DNA from: a virus
Taxonomy: Duplodnaviria > Heunggongvirae > Uroviricota > Caudoviricetes
Reading direction: 5' to 3' (one strand)
DNA: 48,302 nucleotides
IMG/VR virus record: IMGVR_UViG_3300045988_153358
A program made the position numbers and the translations under genes. A model generated the notes under the pieces. It saw only the letters and a list, made by a program, of their open reading frames with translations. It had not been told where the DNA came from and searched no databases. Shown here in pieces: positions 2,684-48,302 of this stretch (position 1 is the first letter of the stretch; the number at the start of each line of letters is the position of its first letter).

Positions 2684-2852
2684 TATATATTTCTATAATT
2701 ATATAAATATATAGTTACAACATTCTATGCGCTTTTCTCATGGGCGCACGCATCAACCATGTTTGTCTGATATGCCGCCGCGCCCAAAAATCCTGAATTT
2801 ATTGGCTGGGATTTTCGTGCGCGGCGCCACACCAGACAAACAGATCAAATAT

Positions 2853-2928
2853 GGCCCCTTAGCTCAGTGGTTAGAGCAGGCGACTCATAATCGCACGGTC
2901 ATCGGTTCAAATCCGGTAGGGGCCACCA
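2853..2928 (+). tRNA. tRNA with anticodon CAT (Met elongator type, or Ile if lysidine-modified), includes 3-prime CCA
   Basis: cloverleaf folded by hand: 7-bp acceptor stem GGCCCCT/AGGGGCC, D-arm GCTC/GAGC, anticodon loop CTCATAA, T-arm ATCGG/CCGGT with TTCAAAT loop. Confidence 0.85.
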
Positions 2929-3236
2929 ATTCACTCTCACACATAAAGATAAGCGCGGTGGAGTTACTTCCTTCGTGCTCATCTTTATGCGTGCCTGGTG
3001 CGCATTTCGGGCGAACGTGGGGCTAAGTTACAGGCAGGGCCTGTTATCCGCAAAGGGGTAAAAGCTGGAGCGGCACGGAACTGTAGCCGTGTTACCAAAA
3101 CAGCGTTGTCGGGCGATATCCGGCACACAACAGGCAAGGGCATTAATCAGTCTGGTTAGTGCCCTTTTCGTTGCGTCTGCTGTAGAGCTGGCCAGCGTTA
3201 TGACTGCCGGAGATAAGCGCCGGAGGCACAACTAAC

Positions 3237-3824
3237 ATGGAGGCAATTGCATTGTTTAATCTGATTTATGCAGATCCCCCCTGGGAATACAAAGATAAGT
3301 GTAAGGATGGGAATCGTGGAGCTGGTTTTAAGTATCCAACGATGAAAGCTGAGGATATTGCTCGTATTCCTGTCTGGCAGCTTGCTAATCCTGAATCGTG
3401 TTTGTTGGCCATGTGGTGGGTTCCGACTCAGCCAGAAGAAGCGTTGCTGGTGGTGAAAGCATGGGGATTCAGGCTTATGACCATGAAGGGCTTCACATGG
3501 AACAAATGTGGTAGCCGACAACCAGATAAGCTGGTGATGGGGATGGGGCATATGACTCGTGCAAACAGTGAAGATTGCTTGTTTGCGGTAAAAGGCAAAT
3601 TGCCGACCCGCCTTGATGCGGGGATCATTCAGTCGTTTACATCGCCTCGTCTGGAGCATTCTCGGAAGCCTGATGTGGTTCGTGACAAGCTGGTAAGGCT
3701 GTTAGGTGATGTTCCTCGTATTGAGCTGTTTGCTCGCGGTGATTTACCTGATGGTTGGCATGGCTGGGGCAACCAGTGCAATGGAGGTATCCAGTTGCAT
3801 GATGCTCTCTGGCAAGTGGCATAG
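3237..3824 (+). CDS. MT-A70 family N6-adenine DNA methyltransferase
   Basis: DPPW catalytic motif (IYADPPWEY). Confidence 0.8.
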   Translation: MEAIALFNLIYADPPWEYKDKCKDGNRGAGFKYPTMKAEDIARIPVWQLANPESCLLAMWWVPTQPEEALLVVKAWGFRLMTMKGFTWNKCGSRQPDKLVMGMGHMTRANSEDCLFAVKGKLPTRLDAGIIQSFTSPRLEHSRKPDVVRDKLVRLLGDVPRIELFARGDLPDGWHGWGNQCNGGIQLHDALWQVA

Positions 3825-3936
3825 AATTATATAATTATAGATTTATATAAAAAGTGCTTTACAGGTGGGAAAAAATTTCCTATGGTTATACCCGAAACCG
3901 AGCGATACCCGCCCTGGTTAAACCGGAGATAACCCG
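3821..3936 (+). promoter_or_regulatory. promoter-leader cassette copy 1: AT-rich upstream element, TTTACA, 17-nt spacer, TATGGT, conserved leader with GGAG ribosome-binding site
   Basis: 118/119 identical to 35286-35404 and about 100 nt identical to 44816-44918. Confidence 0.7.
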
Positions 3937-4206
3937 ATGAAAGTACAAGACCGTGAAGTAGTAAAAAACCTCCTGCAATACCTGACCTCAAAAAACCTGA
4001 CGGGCAGCGTTGAGTTCCGTGAAGCGTTAAAACATTTCAACGTCACTACGGTTTATCGTTGGGAAAACAAACATTCTGAAAGACCGTATGTGGTGGATGT
4101 TTTTGCGCCTGATATTGAGTGCGGTTTTGAGCGCCATTCATTCAAAAAGAAACATTCCGCTGATGTTTTTTGTGAGGTTGTATGTGCGGCAGGAGATGAT
4201 GAGTGA
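3937..4206 (+). CDS. hypothetical protein (89 aa), first gene after cassette copy 1
   Basis: ORF track; conserved leader and ribosome-binding site. Confidence 0.6.
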   Translation: MKVQDREVVKNLLQYLTSKNLTGSVEFREALKHFNVTTVYRWENKHSERPYVVDVFAPDIECGFERHSFKKKHSADVFCEVVCAAGDDE

Positions 4207-23363: not shown

Positions 23364-23574
23364 TTATAGAACGGTTCAAGGGGACTCATGGGATAGCATC
23401 GCGTTAAAGTTGTATGGTAATGAGTACCTGTCTTATCTTCTTATTGATGCTAATACTGAGCACCGCTTTACGGTGCTTTTTTCTGCGGGAATTATTCTTA
23501 AAGTTCCTGATGCTCCGGTTATGCCAATATCAGTAAACAATTTGCCTCCGTGGAGACGCAATAGTGTTACGTAA
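23356..23574 (+). CDS. tail protein X-like (LysM-like), TTG start
   Basis: 72 aa with VQGDSWDSIALKLYG LysM-like pattern as in P2 gpX; GGAG Shine-Dalgarno. Confidence 0.7.
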   Translation: MDDYRTVQGDSWDSIALKLYGNEYLSYLLIDANTEHRFTVLFSAGIILKVPDAPVMPISVNNLPPWRRNSVT

Positions 23575-24565
23575 AACGCTTTTTGATGTTATATATCAGA
23601 ATGTAAATATTACCGCTCATATGTCACCTGATGTTTTGTCAATGTCTTATACAGATAATGAAGATGGTCAGGTCGATGATATTTCTATTATATTAAAAAA
23701 TGATGATGGGAAATGGTCTGGAGACTGGACACCTAAAAAGTGTGATTTTATTGATTTGAGCTTTAAGCCTATAAATCAAATCGTCCTTGAGTGCGGGAAA
23801 TTCCAGGTGGATGGCATAACTTGCTCTGGACCACCTTCTGTTGTTGAGGTGACTGCTGTTTCTGTTCCTGTTTCATCAGGCATTAGACGTGATTTAAAAA
23901 GTAATGCATGGGAAAAAACAACTCTTAAAGATATAGCGACTTCTATAGCTAAATTAGCTAACCTTGAACTGTTGTTTCTTATTGATGGTGATAGTAATCC
24001 ATATTATGCGCGTGAAGATCAAATGGAGGAAAGCGATTTAAAATTTCTCCATCGACTTTGCCAGGATGAAGGGGTGTCGTTAAAGGTCACTGATAGCCAA
24101 TTAATAATATTTGCTCAAGAGATGTTTGAGCAAAAAGATCCTATCGCTACGCTTACGTTAGGTATTGATGAGATAATCAGATATAGCTTTAGCACACAAT
24201 CTACAGATTTGTATAAAAGTTGCACGTGCAAATATCGCGTACCTAAAAAAAGAAAATCGCTTTCGTATACTTGGGTAGATCCATCCGTAGAAGAAGGGGC
24301 GAATCTTAAGATAAGAAAACTGGTAGCTAATTTAGATGAAGCAAAACGTAAGGCAAAGGCTGCTTTGCGGCTTAAAAATAGATATCAAAATACCGGATCT
24401 TTAGTTTTGGTTGGAGACACCAGATTGGTAGCTGGTGTAACTATAAATCTGGACGGATTTGGTTCATTTTCTGGAAAATATCTTATATCGAAAGCTGTGC
24501 ATTCAATTGGGGCTAGTGGTTATACCACCTCGATTGATGTCCGAAGAGTAATTAATGGGTATTAA
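23564..24565 (+). CDS. tail protein D-like (P2 gpD / Mu gpP family)
   Basis: 333 aa; position and pattern. Confidence 0.65.
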   Translation: MLRKTLFDVIYQNVNITAHMSPDVLSMSYTDNEDGQVDDISIILKNDDGKWSGDWTPKKCDFIDLSFKPINQIVLECGKFQVDGITCSGPPSVVEVTAVSVPVSSGIRRDLKSNAWEKTTLKDIATSIAKLANLELLFLIDGDSNPYYAREDQMEESDLKFLHRLCQDEGVSLKVTDSQLIIFAQEMFEQKDPIATLTLGIDEIIRYSFSTQSTDLYKSCTCKYRVPKKRKSLSYTWVDPSVEEGANLKIRKLVANLDEAKRKAKAALRLKNRYQNTGSLVLVGDTRLVAGVTINLDGFGSFSGKYLISKAVHSIGASGYTTSIDVRRVINGY

Positions 24566-27694: not shown

Positions 27695-30541
27695 GTGAGT
27701 AAATTATTATTTACGATGACTGACGCCGGGCGTAAGGCGCTGGTTAATGCCAACAAGACTGGAACAAATAAAGTTGAGATCGTTTCTGTTGGTTTAGGTA
27801 GTAGATATTATGCCACATCAACCACACAAACAAAAATAACAGATGAAATAAAGCGACTTACCACAATAGGAGGCAAAGTCGTTTCTCCTGATACCATTCA
27901 TGTAACTGCGAAGGATGATAGTAAAGATGAGTATGTTGTCCATACAATAGGTTTGTATACAAATAAAGGAACATTGTTTGCTGTATACTCGCAAGAACAA
28001 GTAATAATAAATAAAGCATCTTCTACAATTGCTTTAATATCAAGTGATATAGCAATTAAAAATCTTGATACTAAAAACATTACATTTGGTGATGTTGAGT
28101 TTATTAACCCTCCCGCAACCGAAACTGTTGTTGGAGTAGCAAGATTTGCTAATGAACAAGAAATTGATGCAGGTACAGATGATTCCCTGGCTGTTTCAGC
28201 AAAGCGGCTTAAGCAAGCTATTGTAAAACATGAGCAATCACGTAATCATCCTGATGCAACTTTAACATCAAAAGGCATTGTTCAACTCAGTAATGCCACC
28301 AATAGCACGTCTGAAAAGCTCGCAGCGACGCCTAAGGCTGTTAAGGCTGCATATGACCTGGCTGACGGAAAATATACCGCCCAGAATGCCACCACGGCAC
28401 AAAAAGGGATAGTTCAGCTCAGTAGTGCCACTAACAGTACGTCTGAAACGCAGGCGGCAACGCCAAAAGCGGTCAAGGCAGCAAATGACAACGCAAATTC
28501 ACGTCTGGCGAAAAATCAGAACGGTGCAGATATCCAGGATAAATCAGCTTTTCTGGACAATGTTGGCGTTACCAGCCTGACGTTTATGAAAAACAATGGC
28601 GAAATGCCGCTTGATGCTGATCTGAATACGTTTGGTCCTGTTAAGGCTTATTCAGGTATCTGGTCTAAAGCAACATCCACCAACGCAACACTGGAGAAAA
28701 ATTTCCCGGAAGATAATGCTGTCGGTGTGCTTGAGGTTTTTGCTGCCGGCAATTTTGCAGGTACGCAACGCTTTACCACGAGAGACGGCAATGTATACAT
28801 GCGTAAACTCGCCAATAAGTGGAATGGCACTGATGGTCCGTGGGGCGTATGGCGTCACACTCAATCTGCTACCCGCCCTTTGAGTACGACTATAGACCTG
28901 AATACGCTTGGAGCCGCCGAGCATCTTGGTTTATGGCGTAACAGTAGCTCAGCTATAGCTTCATATGAACGCAATTATCCAGAGGAAGGCGGCTTTGCTC
29001 AGGGGATGCTTGAGATCCTCGAAGGCGGAAATTATGGAAGAACGCAACGTTATACCACTCGCCGTGGAAATATGTATGTCCGCTGTCTTGCGGCAAGCTG
29101 GGATGCATCAAATCCGCAGTGGGAACCGTGGTTAAGAGTCGGTCATCAGTCAGAGAGTCGTTATTACGAAGGTGATTTGAATGATGTAACCTCACCAGGT
29201 ATTTACAGCGTTACAGGTAAAGCGACCAACGGTCCAGTACTGGACGGAAACGGCGTGACTGTACTCGGCATTCTGGAAGTGTTGAGGCGGTTTGATGGTG
29301 TTAATGTATGGCAGCGTTATACAACTGCCGGAACAGGTACAACCCTTAAAGGCCGCACCTTTGAGCGCGTCTTTACCGGCAGCTCATGGAGCGAATGGCG
29401 GGAAGTCTACACCTCGTATTCACTTCCCCTGAATCTAGGTATCGGCGGTGCTGTGGCAAAGCTCACCAGCCTGGACTGGCAGACCTACGATTTTGTGCCG
29501 GGCAGTCTGATAACCGTTCGGCTTGATAACATGACCAATATTCCCGACGGTATGGACTGGGGCGTCATTGATGGCAACCTGATAAACATCTCAGTCGGTC
29601 CGAGTGATGATTCTGGTTCGGGACGCTCAATGCATGTATGGCGCAGCACTGTAAGTAAAGCCAACTACCGCTTTTTTATGGTTCGCATTTCAGGAAATCC
29701 GGGAAGCCGCACGATCACGACAAGACGTGTGCCAATTATCGACGAAGCTCAGACATGGATGGCGAAACAGACATTCAGCGGTGGTCTTTCAGGCGAACTA
29801 TCCGGCAATGCTGCTACAGCAACAAAGCTGAAAACGGCAAGGACAATTAACGGCGTAAAATTTGACGGCTCGGCAAATATTGAAGCGTTTCCGCCAGGTG
29901 TTCCGCTGCCGTGGCCATCAGATACGCCACCTGCAGGTTATGCAATCATGCAGGGGCAGACGTTTGATAAGGCAGCATATCCGAAACTGGCTATTGCCTA
30001 TCCTTCTGGTGTTATTCCAGATATGCGCGGCTGGACAATCAAGGGCAAACCCGCCAGTGGTCGGGCCGTATTGTCTCAGGAACAGGATGGCATTAAATCG
30101 CACACCCACAGTGCCAGCGCATCCAGTACGGATTTGGGTACGAAAACCACATCGTCGTTTGATTACGGTACTAAATCAACGAATAACACAGGTGCACATA
30201 CCCACAATGTATCTGGTACTGCAAATAGTGCTGGCGCACATACTCATACCGTTCCATTAAGGAGACCAAACAGTGGCGGTATGAATTTCGACTGGCTGGA
30301 TGGTTCATCAAGTGGCACGGTGGTGGGGAATGGAACTGTGCCTTCTTCTGGCGCACATACCCACTCAGTATCAGGTACCGCTACAAGTGCTGGGGCACAT
30401 GCACACACTGTTGGTATTGGCGCTCATACGCACTCTGTTAAGATTGGTTCACATGGACACACCATCACCGTTAACGCTGCTGGTAACGCGGAAAACACCG
30501 TTAAAAACATCGCATTTAATTATATTGTGAGGCTTGCATAA
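27695..30541 (+). CDS. tail fibre protein (start GTG 27695 or ATG 27716)
   Basis: 948 aa; tandem [23 protein letters not shown] repeats; C-terminal GAHTH repeats. Confidence 0.85.
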
Positions 30542-31685: not shown

Positions 31686-32155
31686 AAGATAATCATGTGA
31701 CCAATTATTGTAATAATTTTAATGGTATGTTTCTACTGGCTATCCAGCGTGTCTGATATCCAGTAACAAATCGTCAACACGGGTGCAATCAAATGGTGAG
31801 TGTTAAGACTGACCACTTATTACCAGGTATGAGTGGCCAGCATTAAATCAGAACAGCCCTTTAACTGAACTGGCCGCGCTGTTAAGGGATGATGTCACCT
31901 TATCTTTGAAGCCGGACAGCATATTGCTGAACGATGAGTTTACCGCAGGTTTCTGGCTGGGAATCATTGACTGGAGTTAGGCCAGTAGTATGATGCTCGC
32001 AAAACGAGATCCAATTTAGATCCTTTTACTGGTGGATTATCGTTCGATCAGTGAGAGACTTCGTGCATGACCGAAAGTGTTGTGGTAGAGTTCTCTTAAA
32101 ACCACGTAACGTGGTTATGATTGTGGGTGTCTGGTTGGAAAGTGACCAGATATGG

Positions 32156-32268
32156 AAACAAAAAGCCCGCAGATAAATCTGCGGGCTTCTTGCGACATCC
32201 ACGGAAAACCAACAATTAACCATGGGCGCCTCGACAACTCCCATTATACGTTGGTTTTCCGTGGACGC
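32156..32268 (-). ncRNA. candidate CopA-like antisense RNA region for repA control
   Basis: 16-bp perfect inverted repeat 32198-32213 / 32250-32265 with about 36-nt loop; 10-bp hairpin 32163-32188 followed on the minus strand by a U-run. Confidence 0.45.
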
Positions 32269-32280
32269 AAGAGCGAACAT

Positions 32281-33129
32281 ATGGATAGACCAATGCCGTC
32301 TCTACGTTCAGCTTACGTTTGTAATTTGTCGCCGGAGTTCCAGCGTCCAAAGCACCATACGCACAAGCTGCCGCTGGTGTTATCTGATGCTTTACAGCGC
32401 ATTAATGGGCGTGATCTTACGTGTGAGGTTGCGTTCTACGTTAATCAACCGTCAGAGCGGAAGCGCCGGATAAACGAGCATCGTCGTCGGGCGATTAATG
32501 CTGTGATCGCTGCGATTTTGCACCATGTAAACATCATTTCTAAGCGGGTTCTGGCTAGTGCTGAGGCGTTGGCTGATTTTTGCGGCCTGTCTACCGTATC
32601 CGAAGCTGGGAACAAGTCTATAACGCGCTGTACAAGGGCGTTGTCGCAACTGAAAGCGTTAGGTTTTATTGATTATGAACGTCGCTGGGATCGGGTGAAT
32701 AAACAGTATTGGCCAGCGAAAATAGAGATTCGTGATCAACTGCTGGAAACCGTTGGTATTACTGAACAAGCATGGAGACGTGCGGTTAGCCAGAAACTTA
32801 ATTACTTCAATGCGAAGAATAGCGAACGGCTTAAAAAAGCGATAACGGAGGCTGATTATAAGCGTATTGTTATTCAGGAGCAGATGGAGAATGTATGGCG
32901 TCAGAGGAAGACGGCCAGAGAGATAAAGGCAAAACAGAAAGCAGCGGAGAGAGCTGCGCGTCTTGTTCGGGAAAAGGGAGAGGCCGAACTTCGTCATCAA
33001 ATCACCAGAGAGGTTAGTCAGGAATTTGCTGATGGCATGTATCCTGGTGCTGACCTTGCATATTTACGATCCCTCGTTGAGCAGCGTTATAACAGGTTAA
33101 GAAAGACCTGGAAATCACTCCAACATTAA
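32281..33129 (+). CDS. repA: plasmid replication initiator RepA, IncFII RepA1-like
   Basis: central region (GLSTVSEAGNKSITRCTRALSQLKALGFIDYE) closely resembles R100/R1 RepA1; ORF extends upstream to 32152 but that stretch holds the stem-loops. Confidence 0.75.
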   Translation: MDRPMPSLRSAYVCNLSPEFQRPKHHTHKLPLVLSDALQRINGRDLTCEVAFYVNQPSERKRRINEHRRRAINAVIAAILHHVNIISKRVLASAEALADFCGLSTVSEAGNKSITRCTRALSQLKALGFIDYERRWDRVNKQYWPAKIEIRDQLLETVGITEQAWRRAVSQKLNYFNAKNSERLKKAITEADYKRIVIQEQMENVWRQRKTAREIKAKQKAAERAARLVREKGEAELRHQITREVSQEFADGMYPGADLAYLRSLVEQRYNRLRKTWKSLQH

Positions 33130-33400: not shown

Positions 33401-33772
33401 GTTCGCCCTTGCAGCGAGCTAAAGCTCGCGCCGGTTCGAGTCGCTACGCTCAAATATACCTCCTCCGGCACTTGCCGGAGGCATGGAGCAGCCTGATCAT
33501 CCTTTTCGAAACGGCACGTTTCGAACTATACAAAATCAATTTATATAAGGCCGAAATAAGGCCTACGGCCGGGCTTTGCAGGAGGAAGGGGCGAGCCTTA
33601 TCAATAAACGTCGATAAATACGCACACAGTAGCCATCAGAACGCGATAAAATGTAAGAAACATCATTTCCTATTAGACATAGAAAACTTGTCTTATACGC
33701 AATGTAGTAAATTTCTATTGCCACATAGGAAAAGATTTCCTACCATCGTAGATATAATAAATGGAGATGGTT

Positions 33773-34060
33773 ATGGATAAAGATACTGTTTTAAAAATGT
33801 TGAATCCGGCTTGTTTAAAAAAAGCGGATGAATGGGAATCTCCTACATGTGGAGAAGTTCGGGCAGTCATTGGCCTGACCGGAATGAGCGGCTCGCAGTT
33901 AGCCAAAAAACTAGGCTTAAAAGATAGTCGCAATGTTCGCAACTGGCAGATGTTAAAGGAGTCCACATCCAGATCCAGCATTCCGTATGCAGCCTGGGCG
34001 CTGCTGTGTTACTTCGCTGGGTTAGGGTTAATCTTCATTGATAACAAAACAGATGTTTGA
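33773..34060 (+). CDS. hypothetical HTH protein with C-terminal transmembrane helix (95 aa)
   Basis: HTH-like GMSGSQLAKKLGL, hydrophobic IPYAAWALLCYFAGLGLIFI; GGAG Shine-Dalgarno. Confidence 0.5.
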   Translation: MDKDTVLKMLNPACLKKADEWESPTCGEVRAVIGLTGMSGSQLAKKLGLKDSRNVRNWQMLKESTSRSSIPYAAWALLCYFAGLGLIFIDNKTDV

Positions 34061-35280: not shown

Positions 35281-35285
35281 CGCTC

Positions 35286-35401
35286 ATAGAATTATATAAT
35301 TATAGATTTATATAAAAAGTGCTTTACAGGTGGGAAAAAATTTCCTAAGGTTATACCCGAAACCGAGCGATACCCGCCCTGGTTAAACCGGAGATAACCC
35401 G
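35286..35401 (+). promoter_or_regulatory. promoter-leader cassette copy 2
   Basis: 118/119 identical to 3821-3939; the single mismatch is in the candidate -10 (TAAGGT versus TATGGT). Confidence 0.7.
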
Positions 35402-35782
35402 ATGAGCATGATTAAAATCCGCAAAAACGCTTTCCTTAAAATTCAAACTATCCTGGCTGGTTCTGTTGGCGTGATTTGCCGTTCTTCTTCAAGCCGCATC
35501 GATGACGGCTACGATGATGAGTATCGTTTGTCCTCGTGCGATGAGGCTTTAACCTGGCTGAAGGAGAATCAGGAACGTGCCCAGGTATATCTGGAAACAG
35601 AGAACGGCAATCAGATGCTCCGTATTAGCGGTCGTTATGGATTTGAAACCACATTCATGGCCTATTTTAATCAGGCTTACTTTGACAAGGAGTTGGCCTG
35701 GTACACTGATCGCATGAGCAAAAGCGAGCCAGCCCCGATTACACCGCCGAACGATAAACCATTTTTATTCCTCGTTAAGTAA
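35402..35782 (+). CDS. hypothetical protein (126 aa)
   Basis: ORF track; conserved leader and ribosome-binding site. Confidence 0.6.
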   Translation: MSMIKIRKNAFLKIQTILAGSVGVICRSSSSRIDDGYDDEYRLSSCDEALTWLKENQERAQVYLETENGNQMLRISGRYGFETTFMAYFNQAYFDKELAWYTDRMSKSEPAPITPPNDKPFLFLVK

Positions 35783-37494: not shown

Positions 37495-38694
37495 TTATGG
37501 TCTGCTCTTCTGTGCCAGCTTATCAGCACATGTTTTTATCAGATCCTGTAGTGTCCTGGCTGGCAGGTTTGCATCCAGTACGCTGAGTATGCTGTTGTGA
37601 TCTGCTTGGTCGACTACTTTGCCTGTCGGTGGTAGTAGCTTGAGCTGAGGATTCAGGTTTTCGTCAAAGCTGATAAGTGCTCTGGCGTTTCTGAGCAGAT
37701 CAAGAAGTAAGGCTGATATCACATTTTCCTGAGTCATTGCTGACAGATTTAGCGCCGCTTTGGTTTTCCCTGTTGCCTTGTCAAACTCCTTGATTAGTTC
37801 CTTCCTGTAGTTCGGTTCCGTTAATAGCCGATTATGCTCTGTTGCCGCGCGGATAATCGTTTTTTCCTGGTACAGTCGTTTAGCCAGATCACGCTCGTAC
37901 TGTGTTTTTAACACGCTGCTGATAGCGTTAAAGGCTTCAATGTAGGCCAGCTTGATATCTTTCACGCCTGGACCGTCGATACTTTCCATGAGCAAGGTAA
38001 ATCCGTCTTTTGTCATGCGATAGATTGTTATTTCGCGGTCGCTTCCTTCCAGCGGTCGTTGCTCTTTAAAGAAATGACGTGCCGCAGCTGTGCGAGGAAT
38101 GCGTAACGCATCGATGGCCATAACGATGGAATTGTTTGTGGTGCTGAATGCCTGGGCAACATCGGCTGAGGTTGTGAGTGGCTCGTTGTTGCACACCTTA
38201 ATGTAAAACATCGGTTTGGCGTTGAGCGTATCGACAACCTCACGAGCATTGTTTGGCGAGACGGTTACGGTCGCGGCCGTTTGTGTGTTCTGGCTGAAAT
38301 AGCAGTCTTCCAGCCGTTCGAACACATCCCAAGCCTGATCGGTTTCAAGCATTTTGGCGTGACGTGCAGCCCCGCGTTCTGTCCAGAGAATGAGGGAGCG
38401 GGCTTTCGGGGAAATTTGTAACCCTCTTAAAGATGGTTGCACATTTTGTGAGTTACTTAAAGTAACCCGCAAATTTTGTGAGTGACTTAAAGTCACTCGC
38501 AAAGTTTTTAACTCATCGCCAGCCACTTTGAAAAAATGCTTTCCTTCAATAAAGCGGTTTGCGTTACGTGAGTAATTTTTTTTGATGTTATCAACGTCTG
38601 TGCCGTATAGCTTTGCCAGTAGTTCAGTAGTGATAACGGGGATCTGGTTATGCAGGATAGGCTGTAGGGTGTTAACGGTCGGAAGCGTTTTCAT
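37495..38694 (-). CDS. antirepressor-like protein (ORF6N/KilA-type N-terminus, Rha-like C-terminal part)
   Basis: ITTELLAKLYGTDVDNIKKNYSRNANRF motif; downstream of a small overlapping ORF and structured RNA region. Confidence 0.65.
   Translation of the reverse strand: MKTLPTVNTLQPILHNQIPVITTELLAKLYGTDVDNIKKNYSRNANRFIEGKHFFKVAGDELKTLRVTLSHSQNLRVTLSNSQNVQPSLRGLQISPKARSLILWTERGAARHAKMLETDQAWDVFERLEDCYFSQNTQTAATVTVSPNNAREVVDTLNAKPMFYIKVCNNEPLTTSADVAQAFSTTNNSIVMAIDALRIPRTAAARHFFKEQRPLEGSDREITIYRMTKDGFTLLMESIDGPGVKDIKLAYIEAFNAISSVLKTQYERDLAKRLYQEKTIIRAATEHNRLLTEPNYRKELIKEFDKATGKTKAALNLSAMTQENVISALLLDLLRNARALISFDENLNPQLKLLPPTGKVVDQADHNSILSVLDANLPARTLQDLIKTCADKLAQKSRP
38443..38502. repeat. two tandem 30-bp dyad-symmetric repeats inside the antirepressor gene
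   Basis: ATTTTGTGAGTTACTTAAAGTAACCCGCAA then ATTTTGTGAGTGACTTAAAGTCACTCGCAA; arms GTTAC/GTAAC versus GTGAC/GTCAC. Confidence 0.8.
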
Positions 38695-38882: not shown

Positions 38883-39046
38883 TGTGATGATTCCCTTAAA
38901 GGTTAAGGATACTCACCACCGTCAGGTTCCAATCATTGGGTGGTGAGACGTGCAGGGTTGGAACTACCGGACACAATGACGAACCGGCGAGTCTTACGAC
39001 TCCCCCGCACGCCCCACCATAATTTGGGTGTAGCAGTGCTTTACGC

Positions 39047-39150
39047 ATAAAAAAACCGCTAACGCGGTATGCGCCATTGTGTCTACGGGGTTCCAATCCC
39101 GACCGTAGATTTTGCTACGGCTCGGAAAGTGTCCACCAATGGCGCATTCA
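39047..39150 (-). ncRNA. candidate c4-like antisense sRNA (5-prime end not determined)
   Basis: minus-strand hairpin ACCGC-GUUA-GCGGU plus U7 at 39049-39068; stem CCGUAG/CUACGG; GAUUGGAACC element repeated in the leader at 38925-38936 and complementary to 38954-38964. Confidence 0.35.
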
Positions 39151-39638
39151 TGTCAATACGGCGGGATTTTAACAGAGACAACCACATAGCGTGGGTTTAT
39201 TGGTAGGCAGAAACAAAAAAACCGCCCTATTGAGGACGGTTCTTTCGTGCTGATCGGATTCGCGGTCCTTTCAGCATAACGTCGTTGTATAAACAACCAC
39301 GCAAGCACAAGCAGCAAGTTAATTTTACCCAAAAGGTAATAATAGTCCACTATTATGCTTCAAAAAATTGTGGTTCTTGTTGTGCCTGCAAACTCACAGA
39401 TTGTGGGTAGGTTACTGATTTTGTGAAAATAAACGAGTTTTTTCGTTTAATTTCTTTCCTATTACTAATCTTAAAATAATCGTAAAATACCTGTGGACCT
39501 TCCCGCCGATTCGCACCCGGGCACCGACTTTAGGGGAGGATTCTCCGTTGCCGTACATGCAAGCACAAGCAGCCGTGCTTGCTCTCGCGTTGTTTTCGTC
39601 GGTGGGGATGCCGTGAAACGGCCTGTAAGGGCCATACA

Positions 39639-39761
39639 ATGAAAAAATACTGTATGTGTATTTTTATCGTTGTTACTGGGGCTTTGTTTACGCCACATGG
39701 GGAGGGTTGGAAGATTACTGATAACGCTCTGAATGTGACGATAAACATTAGCAGCAAGTAG
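39639..39761 (+). CDS. possible small hydrophobic peptide (40 aa)
   Basis: AAGGG Shine-Dalgarno 8 nt upstream; translation MKKYCMCIFIVVTGALFTPHGEGWKITDNALNVTINISSK; strong terminator follows. Confidence 0.3.
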   Translation: MKKYCMCIFIVVTGALFTPHGEGWKITDNALNVTINISSK

Positions 39762-39766
39762 CGATT

Positions 39767-39790
39767 AGGCCCCTTCGGGGGCCTTTTTTA
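39767..39790 (+). terminator. Rho-independent terminator with UUCG tetraloop
   Basis: AGGCCCC-TTCG-GGGGCCT followed by TTTTT. Confidence 0.75.
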
Positions 39791-40010: not shown

Positions 40011-40259
40011 TTACTTCTGGTTGTATTGAGCCTTGAGTAACTCAAAAGATTTTGTCAGCACTTCTTTCAATGACATATCCATTGAGCTGGCGAACGTTTT
40101 GTACTCGCGTTTAAATTCAGGGTCGACGTTAAACGCCATTTGTGCCCCACCTGATTTGGTTCTGGTTGGCGTTTCAGTCGGGTCGAAAACCTGCGGTTGT
40201 TCGATCGATGGCGGTACGCCTTTGCTGTTCTTCTTTGGTGGTTTTGATGGTCCGGCCAT
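40011..40259 (-). CDS. ParG-like ribbon-helix-helix partition/centromere-binding protein
   Basis: 82 aa; disordered basic N-terminus, C-terminal RHH-like segment; adjacent to ParA. Confidence 0.55.
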   Translation of the reverse strand: MAGPSKPPKKNSKGVPPSIEQPQVFDPTETPTRTKSGGAQMAFNVDPEFKREYKTFASSMDMSLKEVLTKSFELLKAQYNQK

Positions 40260-40302
40260 GTGTATCCCCTCTTATATAAATCTATAAATCTATAATTATA
40301 TA
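40260..40302. promoter_or_regulatory. AT-rich repeat motif between parA stop and parG start
   Basis: tandem TATAAATC units; same motif family as other intergenic sites. Confidence 0.5.
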
Positions 40303-40956
40303 TTACGCGGCAGTAGTCAGAGCCTCAAGCTGGTTGATAATCCCCTGAATAACGTCGTCTGCCTTTTTGCGTGGCGCAACGTATGAGCATTCAATGAGGC
40401 TTAAGCCCTTATCCTGAGCTTTGCTCAGAGCTGGCTTGTGGGGAATGTACTTATCGACAACAAAGTATGGCGTATTAGCCAGGTACTCTTGGGCTTCAAT
40501 GTAGTCGGCTTCGTTTTCAGCCGCGCCTGAGAACACCATGCAAATTTTCTTGATTGGCACACCCTTTTTAACGATGCCGTGAGCTGTGTTAACGGTGGTT
40601 TCTAGGTCATCGGTAGAGAATCTGGTTGGCAAAATAACCATATCCAGAAATTCAGAGAGCTTCGGTACTGATTCAGATGCGTAGGCACCGCCATCGACGA
40701 TAACCAGGTCGTATACTTCTGATTCGATGATTTTCTGGACTTGTGATGGCGTGCCGCACGGCTGCGCCGCGATTGCAGGTTCGATATTGTTGGCCATTCT
40801 GCGTTGTACCCAACGCGTTACCGTTCCGTTAAGCACATCCATATCGATCAGGCATACATTCCAGCCGGCCTTTGCATAAGCAACTGCTAAAGCACGGGCA
40901 ATTGTTGATTTGGTTACGCCGCCTTTTCCGTTGAAAATACCTACAGAGATAGTCAT
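40303..40956 (-). CDS. parA: ParA/MinD-type partition ATPase
   Basis: deviant Walker A GIFNGKGGVTKST; start at second ATG chosen because of GGAG Shine-Dalgarno. Confidence 0.8.
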   Translation of the reverse strand: MTISVGIFNGKGGVTKSTIARALAVAYAKAGWNVCLIDMDVLNGTVTRWVQRRMANNIEPAIAAQPCGTPSQVQKIIESEVYDLVIVDGGAYASESVPKLSEFLDMVILPTRFSTDDLETTVNTAHGIVKKGVPIKKICMVFSGAAENEADYIEAQEYLANTPYFVVDKYIPHKPALSKAQDKGLSLIECSYVAPRKKADDVIQGIINQLEALTTAA

Positions 40957-40974
40957 TTGTCGAGACTCCATGTG

Positions 40975-41080
40975 TTTGGTTATATAATTCTATAAATCTA
41001 TATTTATAGAACGAGGTAAGCATAACCAACTTTTTGGCGGATGAAAAGCGTTTTATATAATTATATAAATCTATAATCAT
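40975..41080. promoter_or_regulatory. parA upstream region with two further copies of the AT-rich motif
   Basis: 40981-41010 and 41053-41077 carry TATATAATT...TATAAATCTATA-type elements. Confidence 0.5.
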
Positions 41081-41106
41081 GTAAGCGGGCGTTAGCCCGC
41101 TTTCAG

Positions 41107-41481: not shown

Positions 41482-41517
41482 GCGTAGCCTCTTTTATACT
41501 TTTACATGTTGTCAAAA

Positions 41518-41530
41518 CCACAAAATGTGG
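41518..41530. promoter_or_regulatory. operator-like dyad CCAC-N5-GTGG downstream of the repressor gene
   Basis: CCACAAAATGTGG, same pattern as the sites in the cI-cro intergenic region. Confidence 0.45.
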
Positions 41531-41573
41531 TTTTTTTGAGCGTAGAAATGCACGGCTTTCGCCGTGCTGTGTA

Positions 41574-42230
41574 TCATAACCAGTTGACAACACTAACTAC
41601 GCGGCCAAGAACTTTATAACGCTTAAATTCCTCGTTATTCAGATGCTTAGTGTTCATTTCAGCATCCCTTTCGGTTGACAGCATAACAGCATTGTCACCC
41701 GGTATGACTCTACAGTGCCTCAAAACAACCAGGCCATTTCTGTCTTCAAGGGCATAGATCCCCTCATGAATCTCTGTATCGTCTGTATTAATCAGGACTT
41801 GGGAGCCAGGGGATATTGTTGGTGACATTAACTCATCGTTGCTCTGGAGAACTGACAGAGACGATGGGTTGATGTTCTTGCTTCGTAGAATCTCCTGTTC
41901 TATCGCCAGCACTGGCTTTTCTCCGGCGTGCGATGCTATGTCATTTTTTATAGCTACAAGCCCAGGAATAACAGGAGCGTTAGTATTCTGGGGTGGGAAC
42001 GGGTTATCTGTTAAGCACGCGATATAAGGCGCTGATGCTTTCAGGGCGTGCGCGATTTTCTTGATGGCAGGTATAGATGGTTGTCTTAATCCGGCCTCAT
42101 AGTTCTGCAAGGTGCTTAAGCCTATTCCAGTGACTTGCTGGAGATCTCCGGCAGTCATGCCGGATTGTTTCCGTAGAGTCTGAATGCGCAGACCTATTTC
42201 TTTCTTGATGTTCTCGTCGTTGCTTTTCAT
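41574..42230 (-). CDS. CI-like repressor (N-terminal HTH, C-terminal S24/LexA-like peptidase domain)
   Basis: HTH GMTAGDLQQVTGIGLSTLQNYEAG; S24-like C-terminal region; divergent from cro-like gene. Confidence 0.8.
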   Translation of the reverse strand: MKSNDENIKKEIGLRIQTLRKQSGMTAGDLQQVTGIGLSTLQNYEAGLRQPSIPAIKKIAHALKASAPYIACLTDNPFPPQNTNAPVIPGLVAIKNDIASHAGEKPVLAIEQEILRSKNINPSSLSVLQSNDELMSPTISPGSQVLINTDDTEIHEGIYALEDRNGLVVLRHCRVIPGDNAVMLSTERDAEMNTKHLNNEEFKRYKVLGRVVSVVNWL

Positions 42231-42404
42231 GTCTCATCAATCGTGAATGGTGGGTTATTTATACATTACCACATTTAGTGGTTTTCACATGGTAAGACGA
42301 GAGGTGGACCACAAATAGAAGGTTATTTTTTGTTTCGCCCATTGAAAAACTCACGATATGTGGTTTTAATACCACATATCGTGGTTTTGACTGGAGTTCG
42401 TTAA
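42231..42404. promoter_or_regulatory. cI-cro intergenic switch with three CCAC-N5-GTGG operator-like sites
   Basis: CCACATTTAGTGG 42269-42281, TCACGATATGTGG 42351-42363, CCACATATCGTGG 42372-42384. Confidence 0.6.
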
Positions 42405-44755: not shown

Positions 44756-44807
44756 AAGTGTCATTTTGAGCTGTTTTGATGGTGTGTAGACATCGGGAAC
44801 ATCGAAA

Positions 44808-44924
44808 ATCTATAAATATATAATTATAGATTTATATAAAAAGTGCTTTACAGGTGGGAAAAAATTTCCTATGGTTATACCCGAAACCGAGCGATACCCG
44901 CCCTGGTTAAACCGGAGAAATCTG
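44808..44924 (+). promoter_or_regulatory. promoter-leader cassette copy 3
   Basis: about 100 nt identical to copies 1 and 2, diverging only in the last 6-7 nt before the ATG. Confidence 0.7.
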
Positions 44925-45992
44925 ATGAATAAACAAGTAATTATTTCTGACTGGATCAACAACCCTAACAGCCTGTTAAGCACTGATACTGGCTACCTAT
45001 TACGCCATGTTAATGGTCGTATGGTCAAAAGCGATGAGCACGAAACCTTTTTCTTTGTTGAAGACGATGGGCGTATCTATGAGGATGGTTACTCTTATGA
45101 AGCCCAAACTGGTTGTATCCCTGCGGAGCTGGTGGATGTAACAGAAGATCTGCGCAAAGCATGGCTTGAACAGCAGCAGCGCGGAGATGATTACGTAAAC
45201 ACCTATCAGGAACGCCAGAACGCGCGTCTTGCCCGATATATTGCTCGTGCAGAAAAAGCCAGAAAAGAAGGTGCGGTAGCGCATAAGCGAGCGCATGACC
45301 TGTTGGATGTGATCCCGTTAGGCCAGCCGATTTTAGTTGACCATTATAGCGCGAAAGGCCATCGCCGCCGTTTGTCTAAAGCTGATGCGTTATTCAGAAA
45401 AGCGTTTGTTGAATGCGAAAGTAAAGCATCACACTACGAGAGCAAAGCCGCAGGTGTTGGTCGTAATGGAATTTCGTCTGATGATCCTGATGCGCTATTT
45501 AAGTTGCTTCGTAAGCTGCAAGGCTGCATGAAGTCACACGTCAAAATGAAGGCCGCAAATAAGGCCATTCGCAAATACAAAAAAGACCAAATACAGCAGC
45601 TTTCTGCATTAATCGATCTCAGGTTTACAGAAAGCGAAGCCAAAGAGTTACTGGCCGGAGATTTCTGTGGGCGCATCGGATTCCCTTCATACGCACTGAG
45701 CAACAATAACGCCGAAATCAAACGACTACAGAGCCGTATTAAGGAGCTTGAATCGGTCAAGTCTGTAACAGGAGCACAGCGCGAAGAATACGACGGCTTT
45801 TCTATGGAGATAGATCCAGAGGATAACCGCATCCTGTTTTATTTCCCTGGCAAACCAGAGGCAAACATTCGTTCGCTGCTTAAATCACGCGCCTTTAAGT
45901 GGAGTCCAACCCGTAATGCATGGGTTCGCAAGATTACTCCAAACGCCCTGGCTGATGCCCGATATCTGAAAGAATCGCTATTGAAAGCCTGA
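44925..45992 (+). CDS. hypothetical protein (355 aa), first gene after cassette copy 3
   Basis: ATG at 44925 at the same leader position as the other copies; the track ORF start at 44871 lies inside the promoter. Confidence 0.6.
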   Translation: MNKQVIISDWINNPNSLLSTDTGYLLRHVNGRMVKSDEHETFFFVEDDGRIYEDGYSYEAQTGCIPAELVDVTEDLRKAWLEQQQRGDDYVNTYQERQNARLARYIARAEKARKEGAVAHKRAHDLLDVIPLGQPILVDHYSAKGHRRRLSKADALFRKAFVECESKASHYESKAAGVGRNGISSDDPDALFKLLRKLQGCMKSHVKMKAANKAIRKYKKDQIQQLSALIDLRFTESEAKELLAGDFCGRIGFPSYALSNNNAEIKRLQSRIKELESVKSVTGAQREEYDGFSMEIDPEDNRILFYFPGKPEANIRSLLKSRAFKWSPTRNAWVRKITPNALADARYLKESLLKA

Positions 45993-46069
45993 CAGTAAGC
46001 CTACGGCGGGATGTCTCCCGCCGTATATAGAATTATATATTTATATAAATGTATAAGGACGCCTCGACA

Positions 46070-47953: not shown

Positions 47954-48302
47954 ATGGCGTTAACACACCGCGAACTCTGTCAGATTGCGTACAAGTTCCT
48001 TAAGCGCAACGGGTTCAAGGTTTGCTTTCATGACCGCTTTATAGCTGTAACCAGTACCGGAGAACAGCCAGATGCTATGGGATTCAGAAATTCAGCATCA
48101 TGCTTGATAGAGGCGAAGTGTTCTCGTGCTGACTTGTTGGCAGATAGAAAAAAGCGTTTCCGTAAAAATCCCTCACTTGGCATGGGCGACTGGCGATTCT
48201 TTATTAGTGAGCCGGAAATTATTTCAGTTGAGGATTTACCTCCCGGCTGGGGATTACTTCACGTTGTTAACGGAAGAGTACGGAAAGTACATGGATGGCC
48301 CA
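47954..48302 (+). CDS. 5-prime portion of wrap-around ORF (171 aa in total, continues at 2-286)
   Basis: ATG at 47954; no stop before window end; PD-x12-EAK motif. Confidence 0.45.
   Translation, partial: MALTHRELCQIAYKFLKRNGFKVCFHDRFIAVTSTGEQPDAMGFRNSASCLIEAKCSRADLLADRKKRFRKNPSLGMGDWRFFISEPEIISVEDLPPGWGLLHVVNGRVRKVHGWP

What the first reader, a model, noticed from the sequence alone, without database searches (positions are those of the whole stretch)
40260..41080. Dispersed AT-rich motif family (TATAAATCTATAATTATATA-like) concentrated at the par locus
Variants of one AT-rich motif occur in at least eight intergenic sites: 2684-2720, 3821-3850, 35286-35315, 40270-40302, 40981-41010, 41053-41077, 44808-44840 and 46025-46050. 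Orientation tracks the downstream gene. Three copies flank parA/parG, one as a tandem TATAAATC unit in the 43-bp gap between parA and parG. They could be centromere or operator sites for the RHH ParG-like protein, or an UP-element-like module shared by the cassette promoters.
Basis: seen in the sequence. Interest (0 to 1): 0.55.

Follow-up and report, generated by a model that had tools for sequence, protein, structure and literature searches.

The report
Partition-protein binding arrays scattered over phage-plasmid
Eight short arrays of an 8-bp AT-rich repeat in this E. coli phage-plasmid are most likely docking sites for the small DNA-binding partner of its ParA segregation ATPase, so one protein probably serves both plasmid inheritance and the control of several scattered genes.

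Summary
The window is a complete circular ~48.2-kb E. coli phage-plasmid. It carries eight arrays of 3-4 contiguous 8-bp units (ATAKAWTT). I found 20 two-unit matches against about 0.1 expected, even when only AT-rich blocks are shuffled. Three arrays bracket parA and its 82-aa partner. Three sit just upstream of the -35 of an identical 121-nt promoter cassette. One precedes a tRNA-Met and one a MarR-like gene.

The 82-aa protein has a disordered basic tail plus a ribbon-helix-helix (RHH) domain. It has no detectable sequence similarity to TP228 ParG or omega. In ten unrelated plasmids examined, its homologues lie directly downstream of a small ParA. In eight of them I saw 8-bp-periodic arrays around the parA promoter, and usually in the parA-RHH gap. 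The unit sequence differs by lineage: ATAKAWTT here, AAAKAWWT in Serratia, AATAACGC in Halomonas, AATTAGCT in Pseudomonas, AACGAAAT in Nostoc. Serratia and Halomonas phage-plasmids have dispersed arrays of their own unit type, in Serratia at the equivalent positions.

Best reading: these are RHH centromere-binding-protein sites acting as centromere and auto-operator at par, and as a dispersed regulon elsewhere, in the manner of omega or KorB. Binding and the direction of regulation are inferred, not shown. I rate it a new variant of a known kind, of moderate interest.

The parts
2684..2720 (.). Array A. Four 8-bp units; polarity is ambiguous. It lies directly after the stop codon of the upstream gene and about 130 nt upstream of tRNA-Met.
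2853..2928 (+). tRNA-Met (CAT), the nearest downstream gene of array A.
3820..3940 (+). Promoter cassette 1. It contains array B (3821-3852: ATAGAATT ATATAATT ATAGATTT ATATAAAA), the -35 TTTACA (3858-3863), a 17-nt spacer holding the palindrome TGGGAAAAAATTTCCTA (3866-3882), the -10 TATGGT (3881-3886), a conserved 50-nt leader, and the ATG at 3937 of an 89-aa gene.
   Evidence: (D1)
35285..35405 (+). Promoter cassette 2. It contains array C (35286-35317), the -35 at 35323-35328, the palindrome at 35331-35347, the -10 TAAGGT at 35346-35351, the leader, and the ATG at 35402 of a 126-aa gene. A terminator-like hairpin precedes it.
40011..40259 (-). Gene for the 82-aa RHH protein (ParG-like). Residues 1-40 form a disordered basic tail and residues 41-80 form the ribbon-helix-helix domain. 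This is the proposed binder of the arrays.
40270..40301 (-). Array D, in the 43-bp parA-parG gap. Read on the - strand it is ATATAATT ATAGATTT ATAGATTT ATATAAGA, followed by the parG ribbosome-binding site. It has 4 units here and 7 units in the ECOR39 plasmid.
40303..40956 (-). parA, a small type Ib Walker ATPase of 217 aa counted from the ATG at 40956. It has the GKGGVTKST motif and no N-terminal DNA-binding domain.
40978..41009 (-). Array E. It lies between the parA -10 and the parA ribosome-binding site. Read on the - strand it is CTATAAAT ATAGATTT ATAGAATT ATATAACC.
41019..41047 (-). Putative parA promoter: -35 TTTTCA (41047-41042), 17-nt spacer, -10 TATGCT (41024-41019). I read it by eye; the promoter scan did not list it.
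41051..41082 (-). Array F. It ends 3 bp upstream of the parA -35. Read on the - strand it is (ACATGATT) ATAGATTT ATATAATT ATATAAAA. The terminator hairpin of the upstream gene (41083-41106) precedes it.
44809..44929 (+). Promoter cassette 3. It contains array G (44802-44841, with units on both strands), the -35 at 44847-44852, the palindrome at 44855-44871, the -10 at 44870-44875, the leader, and the ATG at 44925 of a DUF3560 protein with a primase-like C-terminal part.
46027..46050 (+). Array H (ATAGAATT ATATATTT ATATAAAT). It sits between a terminator-like hairpin and the leader GGACGCCTCGACAATG of a MarR-like 93-aa gene whose ATG is at 46070. No separate promoter is visible.

Best explanation
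The eight arrays are cooperative binding sites for dimers of the 82-aa ribbon-helix-helix protein encoded downstream of parA. One dimer would bind per 8-bp unit, as in TP228 ParG and pSM19035 omega.

The three par-proximal arrays lie upstream of the -35, downstream of the -10, and in the parA-parG gap. They would form the partition complex that the small ParA ATPase acts on, and would also auto-repress the operon.

The five dispersed arrays extend the same protein's reach.
- Three occupy the UP-element position of three identical sigma-70 promoter cassettes that drive small stand-alone gene units.
- Two abut a tRNA-Met region and a MarR-like gene.

Occupancy by the RHH protein would probably damp these units once the plasmid is established, and could add extra attachment points for segregation.

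What is shown: the arrays are real, and they are conserved while their flanks diverge. The protein has an RHH fold. It is coupled to ParA across unrelated plasmids. The repeat unit changes with the lineage.

What is inferred: actual binding, repression rather than activation, and centromere activity of any individual array.
For: 1. Non-random arrays. There are 20 two-unit matches against 0.08 to 0.11 expected. Each array has 3-4 contiguous 8-bp units.

2. The protein. 17 of 44 family members match Pfam RHH_10 and 10 match Antitox_RHH. In the AlphaFold model residues 41-80 are confident and the N-terminal half is unstructured. The top Foldseek PDB matches I inspected are nearly all RHH proteins (PutA, CdbA, CopG, AmrZ, Arc, ParD), with TM-score on the target 0.64-0.87 for the top 13, though E-values are weak.

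3. Coupling to ParA. In ten other plasmids the homologue lies immediately after a 207-232-aa ParA. These include conjugative, mobilizable and phage-plasmid replicons from E. coli, Serratia, Halomonas, Pseudomonas, Nostoc, Methylobacterium and Yersinia.

4. Lineage-specific units in one architecture. In eight of those ten plasmids, arrays flank the parA promoter, and in six of them the parA-RHH gap also holds one (in Nostoc, where there is no gap, it lies downstream). The unit is TATA-type in E. coli, AAAKAWWT in Serratia, AATAACGC or TAGCACGC in Halomonas, AATTAGCT in Pseudomonas and AACGAAAT in Nostoc. A lag of 8 is the top or joint-top autocorrelation in 6 of the 11 parA upstream regions I scored.

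5. Reciprocal scans. The E. coli pattern gives 20 and 23 hits in the window and in L002, and 0 in both Serratia plasmids. The Serratia pattern gives 14 and 17 hits there and 2-3 here. The candidate DNA-facing beta-strand residues differ accordingly: AQMAFNV here against KAMNFNV and KPMNFNM in Serratia.

6. Conserved positions. L003 (RHH protein 80% identical) keeps the arrays around parA while the promoter spacer diverges. Salmonella L004 (89%) keeps those and also the cassette arrays. Both Serratia phage-plasmids have three cassettes with their own unit type, the par arrays, and one array before the gene homologous to 46070. The Halomonas phage-plasmid also has dispersed arrays.

7. Copy-number variation. 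The gap array has 4 units here and 7 in L002. In other plasmids the par region is 8 or 16 bp longer.

8. Precedents. TP228 ParG binds 4-bp boxes with 4-bp AT spacers, and those sites act as both centromere and operator (PMC3130281). Omega binds heptad arrays upstream of several promoters that double as parS sites (PMC4627068). At least 4 contiguous repeats are needed to activate the omega-system ParA (PMC9499535).
Against: - No binding, expression or stability data exist for this element. I found no paper on it.
- Every protein diverges between E. coli and Serratia, so covariation within phage-plasmids alone does not single out the RHH protein. That attribution rests on the non-phage plasmids, which share only the parA-RHH pair.
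- The arrays are short (3-4 units). Efficient TP228 centromere function needs about 8 boxes (PMC3130281).
- The cassettes also carry a separate conserved palindromic operator inside the core promoter. A second repressor may therefore do the main regulation, leaving the arrays' regulatory role uncertain.
- A position from -38 to -70 could equally mean activation.
- Arrays A, D and H have no recognisable promoter next to them.
- I saw no obvious arrays upstream of parA in the Methylobacterium and Y. pestis pTP33 loci.
Confidence: 0.65

Rival explanations
1. The dispersed arrays are purely additional centromere sites, a distributed centromere like the four separate IR sites of prophage-plasmid N15. 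Their nearness to promoters would be incidental, with no transcriptional role.
For: - The same units occur at par and elsewhere.
- N15 uses four separate SopB sites (PMC7205306).
- Arrays A, D and H have no adjacent promoter.
- The cassettes already carry another operator.
Against: - Four arrays keep a fixed register 3-5 bp from a -35 hexamer.
- That placement is preserved in Serratia with a different unit. Sites needed only for attachment would not be expected to keep it.
- All characterised RHH centromere-binding proteins also regulate transcription (PMC3130281, PMC4627068).
- All arrays lie within one 17-kb arc rather than being spread around the circle.
Confidence: 0.15
2. The arrays are generic AT-rich promoter-upstream DNA: UP elements contacted by the RNA polymerase alpha subunit, or sites for host nucleoid proteins such as H-NS, IHF or Fis. 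No plasmid-encoded protein would recognise them.
For: - Four arrays occupy roughly -38 to -70.
- The promoter-proximal end ATATAAAAAGTGC resembles the proximal UP subsite consensus AAAAAARNR. That consensus is from my own knowledge and was not tested here.
- The tracts are almost pure A/T.
Against: - Strict 8-bp periodicity and a defined unit far exceed what AT-richness gives.
- The other 58 AT-rich blocks lack the unit.
- Four arrays are not upstream of any -35.
- The unit differs between E. coli and Serratia plasmids. Their host factors are closely related; that statement is my own knowledge.
- Halomonas, Pseudomonas and Nostoc relatives use GC-containing units in the same architecture.
Confidence: 0.07
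3. A different phage-plasmid regulator binds the arrays. Candidates are the MarR-like protein at 46070, the 124-aa protein between cI and parA, or the 95-aa HTH-like protein at 33773.
For: - These genes are conserved in the Serratia relatives and also diverge there.
- Array H directly precedes the MarR-like gene.
Against: - Non-phage plasmids L009, L010, L012, L015 and L016 carry the same array architecture with only the parA-RHH pair in common.
- Tandem short units in direct and inverted order are typical of RHH binding (PMC4627068, PMC3130281).
- The cI-like repressor and the HTH-like protein already have their own candidate palindromes: AACCAC-N5-GTGGTT and TRGGAAA-N3-TTTCCTA.
Confidence: 0.08

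Closest known systems
TP228 ParF/ParG/parH-OF (type Ib partition, E. coli)
   Same: - A small ParA-type ATPase is followed by a roughly 80-aa protein with a flexible N-terminal tail and an RHH domain.
- Binding sites have 8-bp periodicity. In TP228 this is a 4-bp box plus a 4-bp AT spacer, in direct and inverted order.
- The sites lie at the operon promoter and serve as both centromere and operator (PMC3130281).
   Different: - There is no detectable sequence similarity to ParG.
- The unit here is all A/T apart from one G/T position, where TP228 has an ACTC box.
- TP228 has one contiguous block of 20 boxes upstream of the operon. Here there are short 3-4-unit arrays split around the promoter, in the intergenic gap, and at five distant sites.
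pSM19035 delta/omega, an RHH centromere-binding protein that is also a global regulator (Firmicutes)
   Same: - An RHH protein with an unstructured N-terminal domain.
- Arrays of unspaced short repeats in mixed orientation lie upstream of several promoters and double as parS sites.
- One protein links partition with the control of other plasmid functions.
- Four contiguous repeats are the functional minimum, which matches the array size here (PMC4627068, PMC9499535).
   Different: - Omega uses 7-bp heptads in arrays of 6-10. Here the units are 8 bp in arrays of 3-4.
- There is no sequence homology.
- The host is Gram-negative and the element is a phage-plasmid.
- Omega targets copy-control, par and toxin-antitoxin promoters. 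The targets here are three identical cassettes for unknown or primase-like genes, a tRNA region and a MarR-like gene.
- The cassettes also carry a second, palindromic operator.
N15 prophage-plasmid SopAB with four separate centromere sites IR1-4
   Same: A phage-plasmid whose partition-protein binding sites are several separate sites rather than one block (PMC7205306). From my own knowledge, these sites are spread through the N15 genome (Ravin and Lane 1999).
   Different: - N15 is type Ia: a large ParA and an HTH ParB (SopB).
- Its sites are single 16-bp palindromes rather than RHH repeat arrays.
RK2 KorB/IncC, a ParB that is also a global repressor with 12 dispersed operators (my own knowledge, not checked here)
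   Same: A partition protein whose sites are scattered over the replicon. Some lie immediately upstream of -35 boxes, and the protein coordinates gene expression with segregation.
   Different: - KorB is an HTH ParB that binds a 13-bp palindrome.
- RK2 is a conjugative plasmid, not a phage-plasmid.
Mycobacteriophage L5 'stoperators' (my own knowledge, not checked here)
   Same: Many copies of a short, oriented repressor site lie in short intergenic gaps throughout a temperate phage genome, with polarity following transcription.
   Different: - Those are single 13-bp sites for the HTH immunity repressor.
- They are not tandem arrays and are not linked to partition.

Membership tests
Type Ib plasmid partition system (small ParA + RHH centromere-binding protein + repeat centromere) | A small Walker-type ParA (about 200-230 aa) with the deviant Walker A motif and no N-terminal DNA-binding domain. 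| tested here: met
   The protein is 217 aa from the ATG at 40956 and carries GKGGVTKST. It matches Pfam CbiA, ParA and MipZ, and NCBIfam ParA_partition at 4.7e-22, which is below that model's curated cutoff.
Type Ib plasmid partition system (small ParA + RHH centromere-binding protein + repeat centromere) | The partner gene lies immediately downstream and encodes a small RHH protein with a flexible N-terminal tail. | tested here: met
   The 82-aa gene lies 43 bp downstream. Family members match Pfam RHH_10 and Antitox_RHH. The model has a confident strand-helix-helix region at residues 41-80 and a low-confidence tail. The top Foldseek matches are nearly all RHH proteins. The synteny with ParA holds in ten other plasmids.
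Type Ib plasmid partition system (small ParA + RHH centromere-binding protein + repeat centromere) | An array of short repeats in or next to the operon, which the partner protein binds. | tested here: inconclusive
   The arrays are present, statistically secure and lineage-specific. Binding itself cannot be tested with these tools.
Type Ib plasmid partition system (small ParA + RHH centromere-binding protein + repeat centromere) | The locus stabilises an otherwise unstable replicon. | not testable with these tools
   This needs plasmid-loss assays.
ParG family (TP228 ParG, Pfam ParG; PDB 1P94 recalled from memory) | Significant sequence similarity to ParG. | tested here: not met
   No Pfam ParG hit was found for the protein or for any of the 44 family members. 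No NCBIfam hit was found. phmmer and a profile search of all PDB chains returned no ParG chain at E up to 10. The protein is ParG-like in architecture only.
ParG family (TP228 ParG, Pfam ParG; PDB 1P94 recalled from memory) | Sites with 8-bp periodicity (a 4-bp box plus a 4-bp AT-rich spacer), one dimer per unit. | tested here: met
   The 8-bp register is seen in every array. A lag of 8 is the top or joint-top autocorrelation in 6 of the 11 parA upstream regions I scored. The TP228 layout is taken from PMC3130281. The stoichiometry of one dimer per unit was not tested.
Omega-type RHH global regulator and centromere-binding protein (pSM19035) | Repeat arrays embedded upstream of several separate promoters on the replicon. 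| tested here: met
   Arrays end 3-5 bp upstream of a -35 hexamer at four promoters: three cassettes and parA. The same layout is found in the Serratia relatives.
Omega-type RHH global regulator and centromere-binding protein (pSM19035) | Sequence homology to omega, and 7-bp WATCACW heptads. | tested here: not met
   The PDB sequence searches returned no omega chain. The units here are 8 bp and read ATAKAWTT.
Omega-type RHH global regulator and centromere-binding protein (pSM19035) | The protein represses or activates those promoters. | not testable with these tools
   This needs reporter fusions or RNA-seq with and without the protein.
UP element (binding site for the RNA polymerase alpha C-terminal domain) | An A/T-rich tract at about -40 to -60 of a sigma-70 promoter. 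| tested here: inconclusive
   The position fits arrays B, C, G and F. Arrays A, D, E and H are not upstream of a recognisable -35. The lineage-specific unit sequence is not expected of a generic UP element.
Iterons of a replication origin | Repeats next to and bound by a Rep initiator of the iteron type. | tested here: not met
   RepA is IncFII-type (NCBIfam RepA_IncFII_LM, 2e-68). No array lies near repA at 32152-33129. In other plasmids the arrays travel with the par locus.

The most novel reading that the evidence does not exclude
A widespread but unstudied family of E. coli, Salmonella, Serratia and Halomonas phage-plasmids uses the RHH partner of its type Ib ParA as a master switch. On this reading:
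- The same 8-bp arrays that build the segregation complex also gate three identical, separately terminated promoter cassettes, a tRNA region and a MarR-like regulator.
- A second repressor acting on a palindrome in the promoter core makes this a two-key logic.
- The gated genes would fire on entry into a naive cell and be shut off as the partition protein accumulates.
- The scattered arrays would jointly act as a distributed centromere.

The single-position difference in the repeat unit (T in E. coli, A in Serratia), paired with beta-strand changes, would give a natural specificity code for this RHH family.
Probability: 0.35. Interest if true: 0.65.

Novelty: new variant of a known kind. Interest (0 to 1): 0.5.

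Why it matters
This phage-plasmid is common. At least 61 complete plasmid records carry this par region, mostly from E. coli. One is in the reference strain ATCC 25922. Close relatives were deposited as Yersinia phages. I found no description of how it is maintained or regulated.

If the arrays are sites for the partition protein, three things follow.
- The element is a Gram-negative, phage-borne counterpart of the omega and KorB paradigm, in which one protein couples segregation to gene control.
- It defines an uncharacterised RHH centromere-binding family (phrog_6024; some members match Pfam RHH_10). That family is present in at least 233 plasmids, from Enterobacterales to Nostoc.
- The natural series of unit variants paired with beta-strand variants offers a tractable system for learning RHH-DNA recognition rules.

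It would also give incompatibility and curing targets for phage-plasmids, some of which carry resistance genes. The Serratia relative examined here carries blaTEM-1.

Tried and rejected
1. Chance or AT-richness. Rejected by whole-genome shuffles and by shuffles within AT-rich blocks.

2. Membership of the ParG or omega families. Pfam, NCBIfam and PDB sequence and profile searches found nothing. Only the fold and the architecture match.

3. RepA iterons. Rejected because RepA is IncFII-type and no array lies near repA.

4. cI-repressor operators. The cI-like protein has its own candidate palindrome AACCAC-N5-GTGGTT at 32100, 39180, 41516, 42267, 42349 and 42370, which is unrelated to the arrays.

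5. The search for related loci with the RHH alignments A2 and A3 failed, because no stretch was conserved enough. I used tblastn against plasmids instead.

6. The word-index homologue search found only relatives at 80% identity or more. The exhaustive HMMER search was needed to reach the wider family.

7. I guessed the element might belong to the pSLy3 phage-plasmid group. That group is part of the SSU5 supercommunity (PMC7969092). I did not compare it with this element directly and found no link.

8. Literature searches for this element's partition system found nothing specific.

9. Rfam found no family over the arrays or the cassette leaders.
Full report
**What the window is.** The first 119 bases repeat exactly at the end (D3), so the window is one complete circular genome of about 48,183 bp.

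Its gene content is as follows:
- a myovirus-type packaging, head, tail and lysis block on the + strand;
- an IncFII-type RepA (32152-33129);
- a RelE/ParE-HTH pair;
- a cI-like HTH-S24 repressor (41574-42230, - strand);
- a small ParA followed by an 82-aa gene.

Near-identical records are E. coli plasmids of roughly 46-52 kb, including one in ATCC 25922. At 97.6% identity over 82% of the query there are also three records deposited as Yersinia phages. It is therefore a phage-plasmid. I found no publication on its maintenance functions.

**The observation.** All eight sites are present. The motif is a tandem 8-bp unit, ATAKAWTT, with 3-4 contiguous units per site. A two-unit pattern with at most one mismatch matches 20 times, always inside the eight sites.
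- Whole-genome shuffles give a mean of 0.08.
- Shuffling only within the 66 AT-rich blocks gives a mean of 0.11, and the other 58 AT-rich blocks have no match.

- Site 2684-2720 precedes a tRNA-Met (2853-2928).
- Polarity is weak because the unit is almost self-complementary at a 4-nt offset.
- Three sites are copies of a whole 121-nt cassette (D1).

**Anatomy.** There are four contexts.

(i) The parA promoter. A terminator hairpin is followed by array F, which ends 3 bp before a putative -35 TTTTCA. Then come a 17-nt spacer, a putative -10 TATGCT, array E, the leader GGAGTCTCGACAAATG, and parA. I read this promoter by eye; the scan did not list it.

(ii) Array D fills the 43-bp gap before the ribosome-binding site of the 82-aa gene.

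(iii) Three cassettes. Each has an array ending 5 bp before the -35 TTTACA, a 17-nt spacer, a -10 TATGGT or TAAGGT, a 50-nt leader and an ATG. They drive an 89-aa gene, a 126-aa gene, and a DUF3560 protein with a primase-like C-terminal part. Hairpins before cassette 2 and after the genes of cassettes 1 and 3 suggest stand-alone units (D10).

(iv) Arrays A and H have no visible promoter. Array A lies upstream of the tRNA. Array H lies 19 nt before the ATG of a MarR-like gene, whose leader resembles that of parA.

**The protein.** The 82-aa product has no Pfam, NCBIfam or PDB sequence match. Its only database family is phrog_6024, of unknown function.

An exhaustive HMMER search found about 50 small homologues at 33-49% identity. 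Their alignment shows:
- a conserved N-terminal MAxPxKPxKK..KGxPP segment;
- a core LNFKVxxEFxREFKxFA..DMSMxELLxxxFELYK.

Of 44 members, 17 match Pfam RHH_10 and 10 match Antitox_RHH. The AlphaFold model is confident for residues 41-80 and shows two helices after an extended segment; the first 40 residues are unstructured. The top Foldseek PDB matches I inspected are nearly all RHH proteins, with TM-score on the target 0.64-0.87 for the top 13, although E-values are weak for so small a domain. A profile search of PDB sequences did not recover ParG or omega.

So the protein has the architecture of a type Ib centromere-binding protein, but it is not a member of the ParG family by sequence.

**Linking the arrays to the protein.** tblastn with a distant family member finds homologues in 233 plasmids. 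In the ten I inspected, the gene lies directly after a 207-232-aa ParA. These ten are:
- two Serratia phage-plasmids;
- an E. coli MOBC conjugative plasmid;
- an E. coli IncFII 21.7-kb plasmid;
- a 304-kb E. coli plasmid;
- Halomonas, Pseudomonas, Nostoc and Methylobacterium plasmids;
- Y. pestis pTP33.

In eight of them, arrays flank the parA promoter, and in six of these an array also fills the parA-RHH gap. In Nostoc the two genes abut and the array lies downstream instead. The unit differs by lineage:

| Lineage | Unit |
|---|---|
| E. coli small plasmids | TATA-type |
| Serratia | AAAKAWWT |
| Halomonas | AATAACGC / TAGCACGC |
| Pseudomonas | AATTAGCT |
| Nostoc | AACGAAAT |

I saw no obvious arrays upstream of parA in the Methylobacterium and pTP33 loci. 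Several of these plasmids share nothing with the window except the parA-RHH pair. That points to the RHH protein rather than a phage regulator, since type Ib ParA proteins lack a specific DNA-binding domain (established knowledge).

Reciprocal scans are clean:

| Pattern (two units, at most 1 mismatch) | Window | L002 | Serratia L007 | Serratia L008 |
|---|---|---|---|---|
| E. coli type, ATAKAWTT | 20 | 23 | 0 | 0 |
| Serratia type, AAAKAWWT | 3 | 2 | 14 | 17 |

The systematic difference is position 2 of the unit, T against A. It goes with changes in the candidate DNA-facing strand: AQMAFNV here, KAMNFNV and KPMNFNM in Serratia.

**Conservation of the dispersed sites.**
- The E. coli ECOR39 plasmid has the same eight arrays.
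- L003 (RHH protein 80% identical) keeps the arrays around parA while the promoter spacers diverge. Salmonella L004 (89%) keeps those and the cassette arrays as well.
- One Serratia phage-plasmid has a myovirus structural module and the other a siphovirus module. Each has three cassettes with its own unit type, the par arrays, and an array before the homologue of the 46070 gene.
- The Halomonas phage-plasmid also has arrays at four intergenic sites away from par.
- The gap array varies in whole units: 4 here and 7 in ECOR39. In other plasmids the par region is 8 or 16 bp longer.

**Mechanism.** I propose that RHH dimers coat each array cooperatively, one per 8-bp unit, as documented for ParG on its 4+4-bp sites (PMC3130281) and for omega on heptads (PMC4627068).

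At par, the arrays that bracket the promoter and fill the gap would form the segregation complex and auto-repress the operon. Both TP228 sites and all three omega sites have this dual centromere-operator character (PMC3130281, PMC4627068). An array size of about four units matches the minimum of four contiguous repeats needed to activate the omega-system ParA (PMC9499535).

Array F holds the same position relative to the -35 as the cassette arrays. By analogy, I infer that those arrays let the same protein modulate the cassettes. Repression by occluding the UP-element position is the most likely outcome. However, omega shows that an RHH protein can activate at low occupancy and repress at high occupancy (PMC4627068).

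All of this is inference. Neither binding nor the direction of regulation has been shown.

**Complication.** Each cassette also carries a palindrome, TRGGAAA-N3-TTTCCTA, in the promoter spacer. A fourth copy lies in an array-less promoter (TTGCCA, 17 nt, TACCAT) upstream of a 95-aa HTH-like gene at 33773-34060. Both Serratia genomes show the same pattern of three cassette copies plus one copy just after repA. The partial Salmonella locus shows two cassette copies plus that one. The palindrome arms are conserved across all of these. A second repressor therefore probably controls these promoters, which lowers confidence that the arrays are the main regulatory input.

**Comparison and verdict.** The element works like a type Ib partition locus whose RHH protein has a dispersed set of sites. 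It combines features of TP228 ParG (8-bp periodicity), omega (arrays at several promoters), N15 (several separate sites in a phage-plasmid; PMC7205306) and, from my own knowledge, KorB of RK2.

It is not a sequence member of the ParG or omega families. I classify it as a new variant of a known kind, in an uncharacterised protein family and an unstudied but common phage-plasmid. Interest is moderate, and the claims are directly testable.

Noticed in passing
window 1-119 and 48184-48302: There is an exact 119-nt terminal direct repeat. The window is therefore a complete circular genome of about 48,183 bp with an assembly overlap.
   Followed up: partly
window 3866-3882, 35331-35347, 44855-44871, 33726-33742: A second dispersed operator-like element. 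The palindrome TRGGAAA-N3-TTTCCTA sits in the -35/-10 spacer of the three cassettes. A fourth copy lies in an array-less promoter (TTGCCA, 17 nt, TACCAT) before a 95-aa HTH-like gene (33773-34060), a candidate autoregulated repressor. Both Serratia relatives show the same three-plus-one pattern, and the partial Salmonella locus shows two plus one.
   Followed up: partly
window 3887-3936, 35352-35401, 44876-44924 (cassette leaders): The 50-nt leader ends in the conserved AAACCGGAGA sequence before the ATG. It holds a small predicted hairpin with two adjacent compensatory pairs: AACC...GGTT in E. coli and Salmonella, GGCC...GGCC in Serratia. This is weak evidence, since it reflects one lineage split.
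   Followed up: partly
window 32100-32116, 39180-39196, 41516-41532, 42267-42283, 42349-42365, 42370-42386: The palindrome AACCAC-N5-GTGGTT gives 9 matches against 1.4 expected. It clusters in the divergent region between cI and the early genes. Copies also lie just upstream of repA and upstream of the C4/isrK-antirepressor region. These are probably the cI-like repressor's operators, which would imply that the repressor also controls replication.
   Followed up: partly
window 38936-39024 (-), 39049-39121 (-), 39493-39789 (+), 37495-38694 (-): Rfam finds a C4 antisense RNA, an isrK-like RNA and a ryfA-like RNA directly downstream of the RHH gene. An ORF6N/Rha antirepressor-type gene follows. 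This looks like a P1-type immI module placed right after the par operon.
   Followed up: no
window 2853-2928; ORF 2727-3026: There is a tRNA-Met (CAT). The 99-aa ORF that overlaps it is probably not a gene, although it matches phrog_23857.
   Followed up: partly
L002 15014-15061 versus window 40270-40301: The parA-parG gap array is polymorphic in whole 8-bp units: 7 units in the ECOR39 plasmid and 4 here. In other plasmids the par region is 8 or 16 bp longer.
   Followed up: partly
window 5986-7982 and 9275-9865: Three ParB/Srx N-terminal-domain proteins are annotated in the homologous plasmid, next to the terminase genes. They are unrelated to the partition locus.
   Followed up: no
window 22628-22912 and 30191-30412: There are in-frame tandem repeats inside the tape-measure gene (120-nt period) and the tail-fibre gene (GAHTH-type repeats) (D4-D6).
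   Followed up: no
L007 (CP083756.1) 23202-24062: The Serratia marcescens relative of this phage-plasmid carries blaTEM-1 next to a recombinase gene.
   Followed up: no
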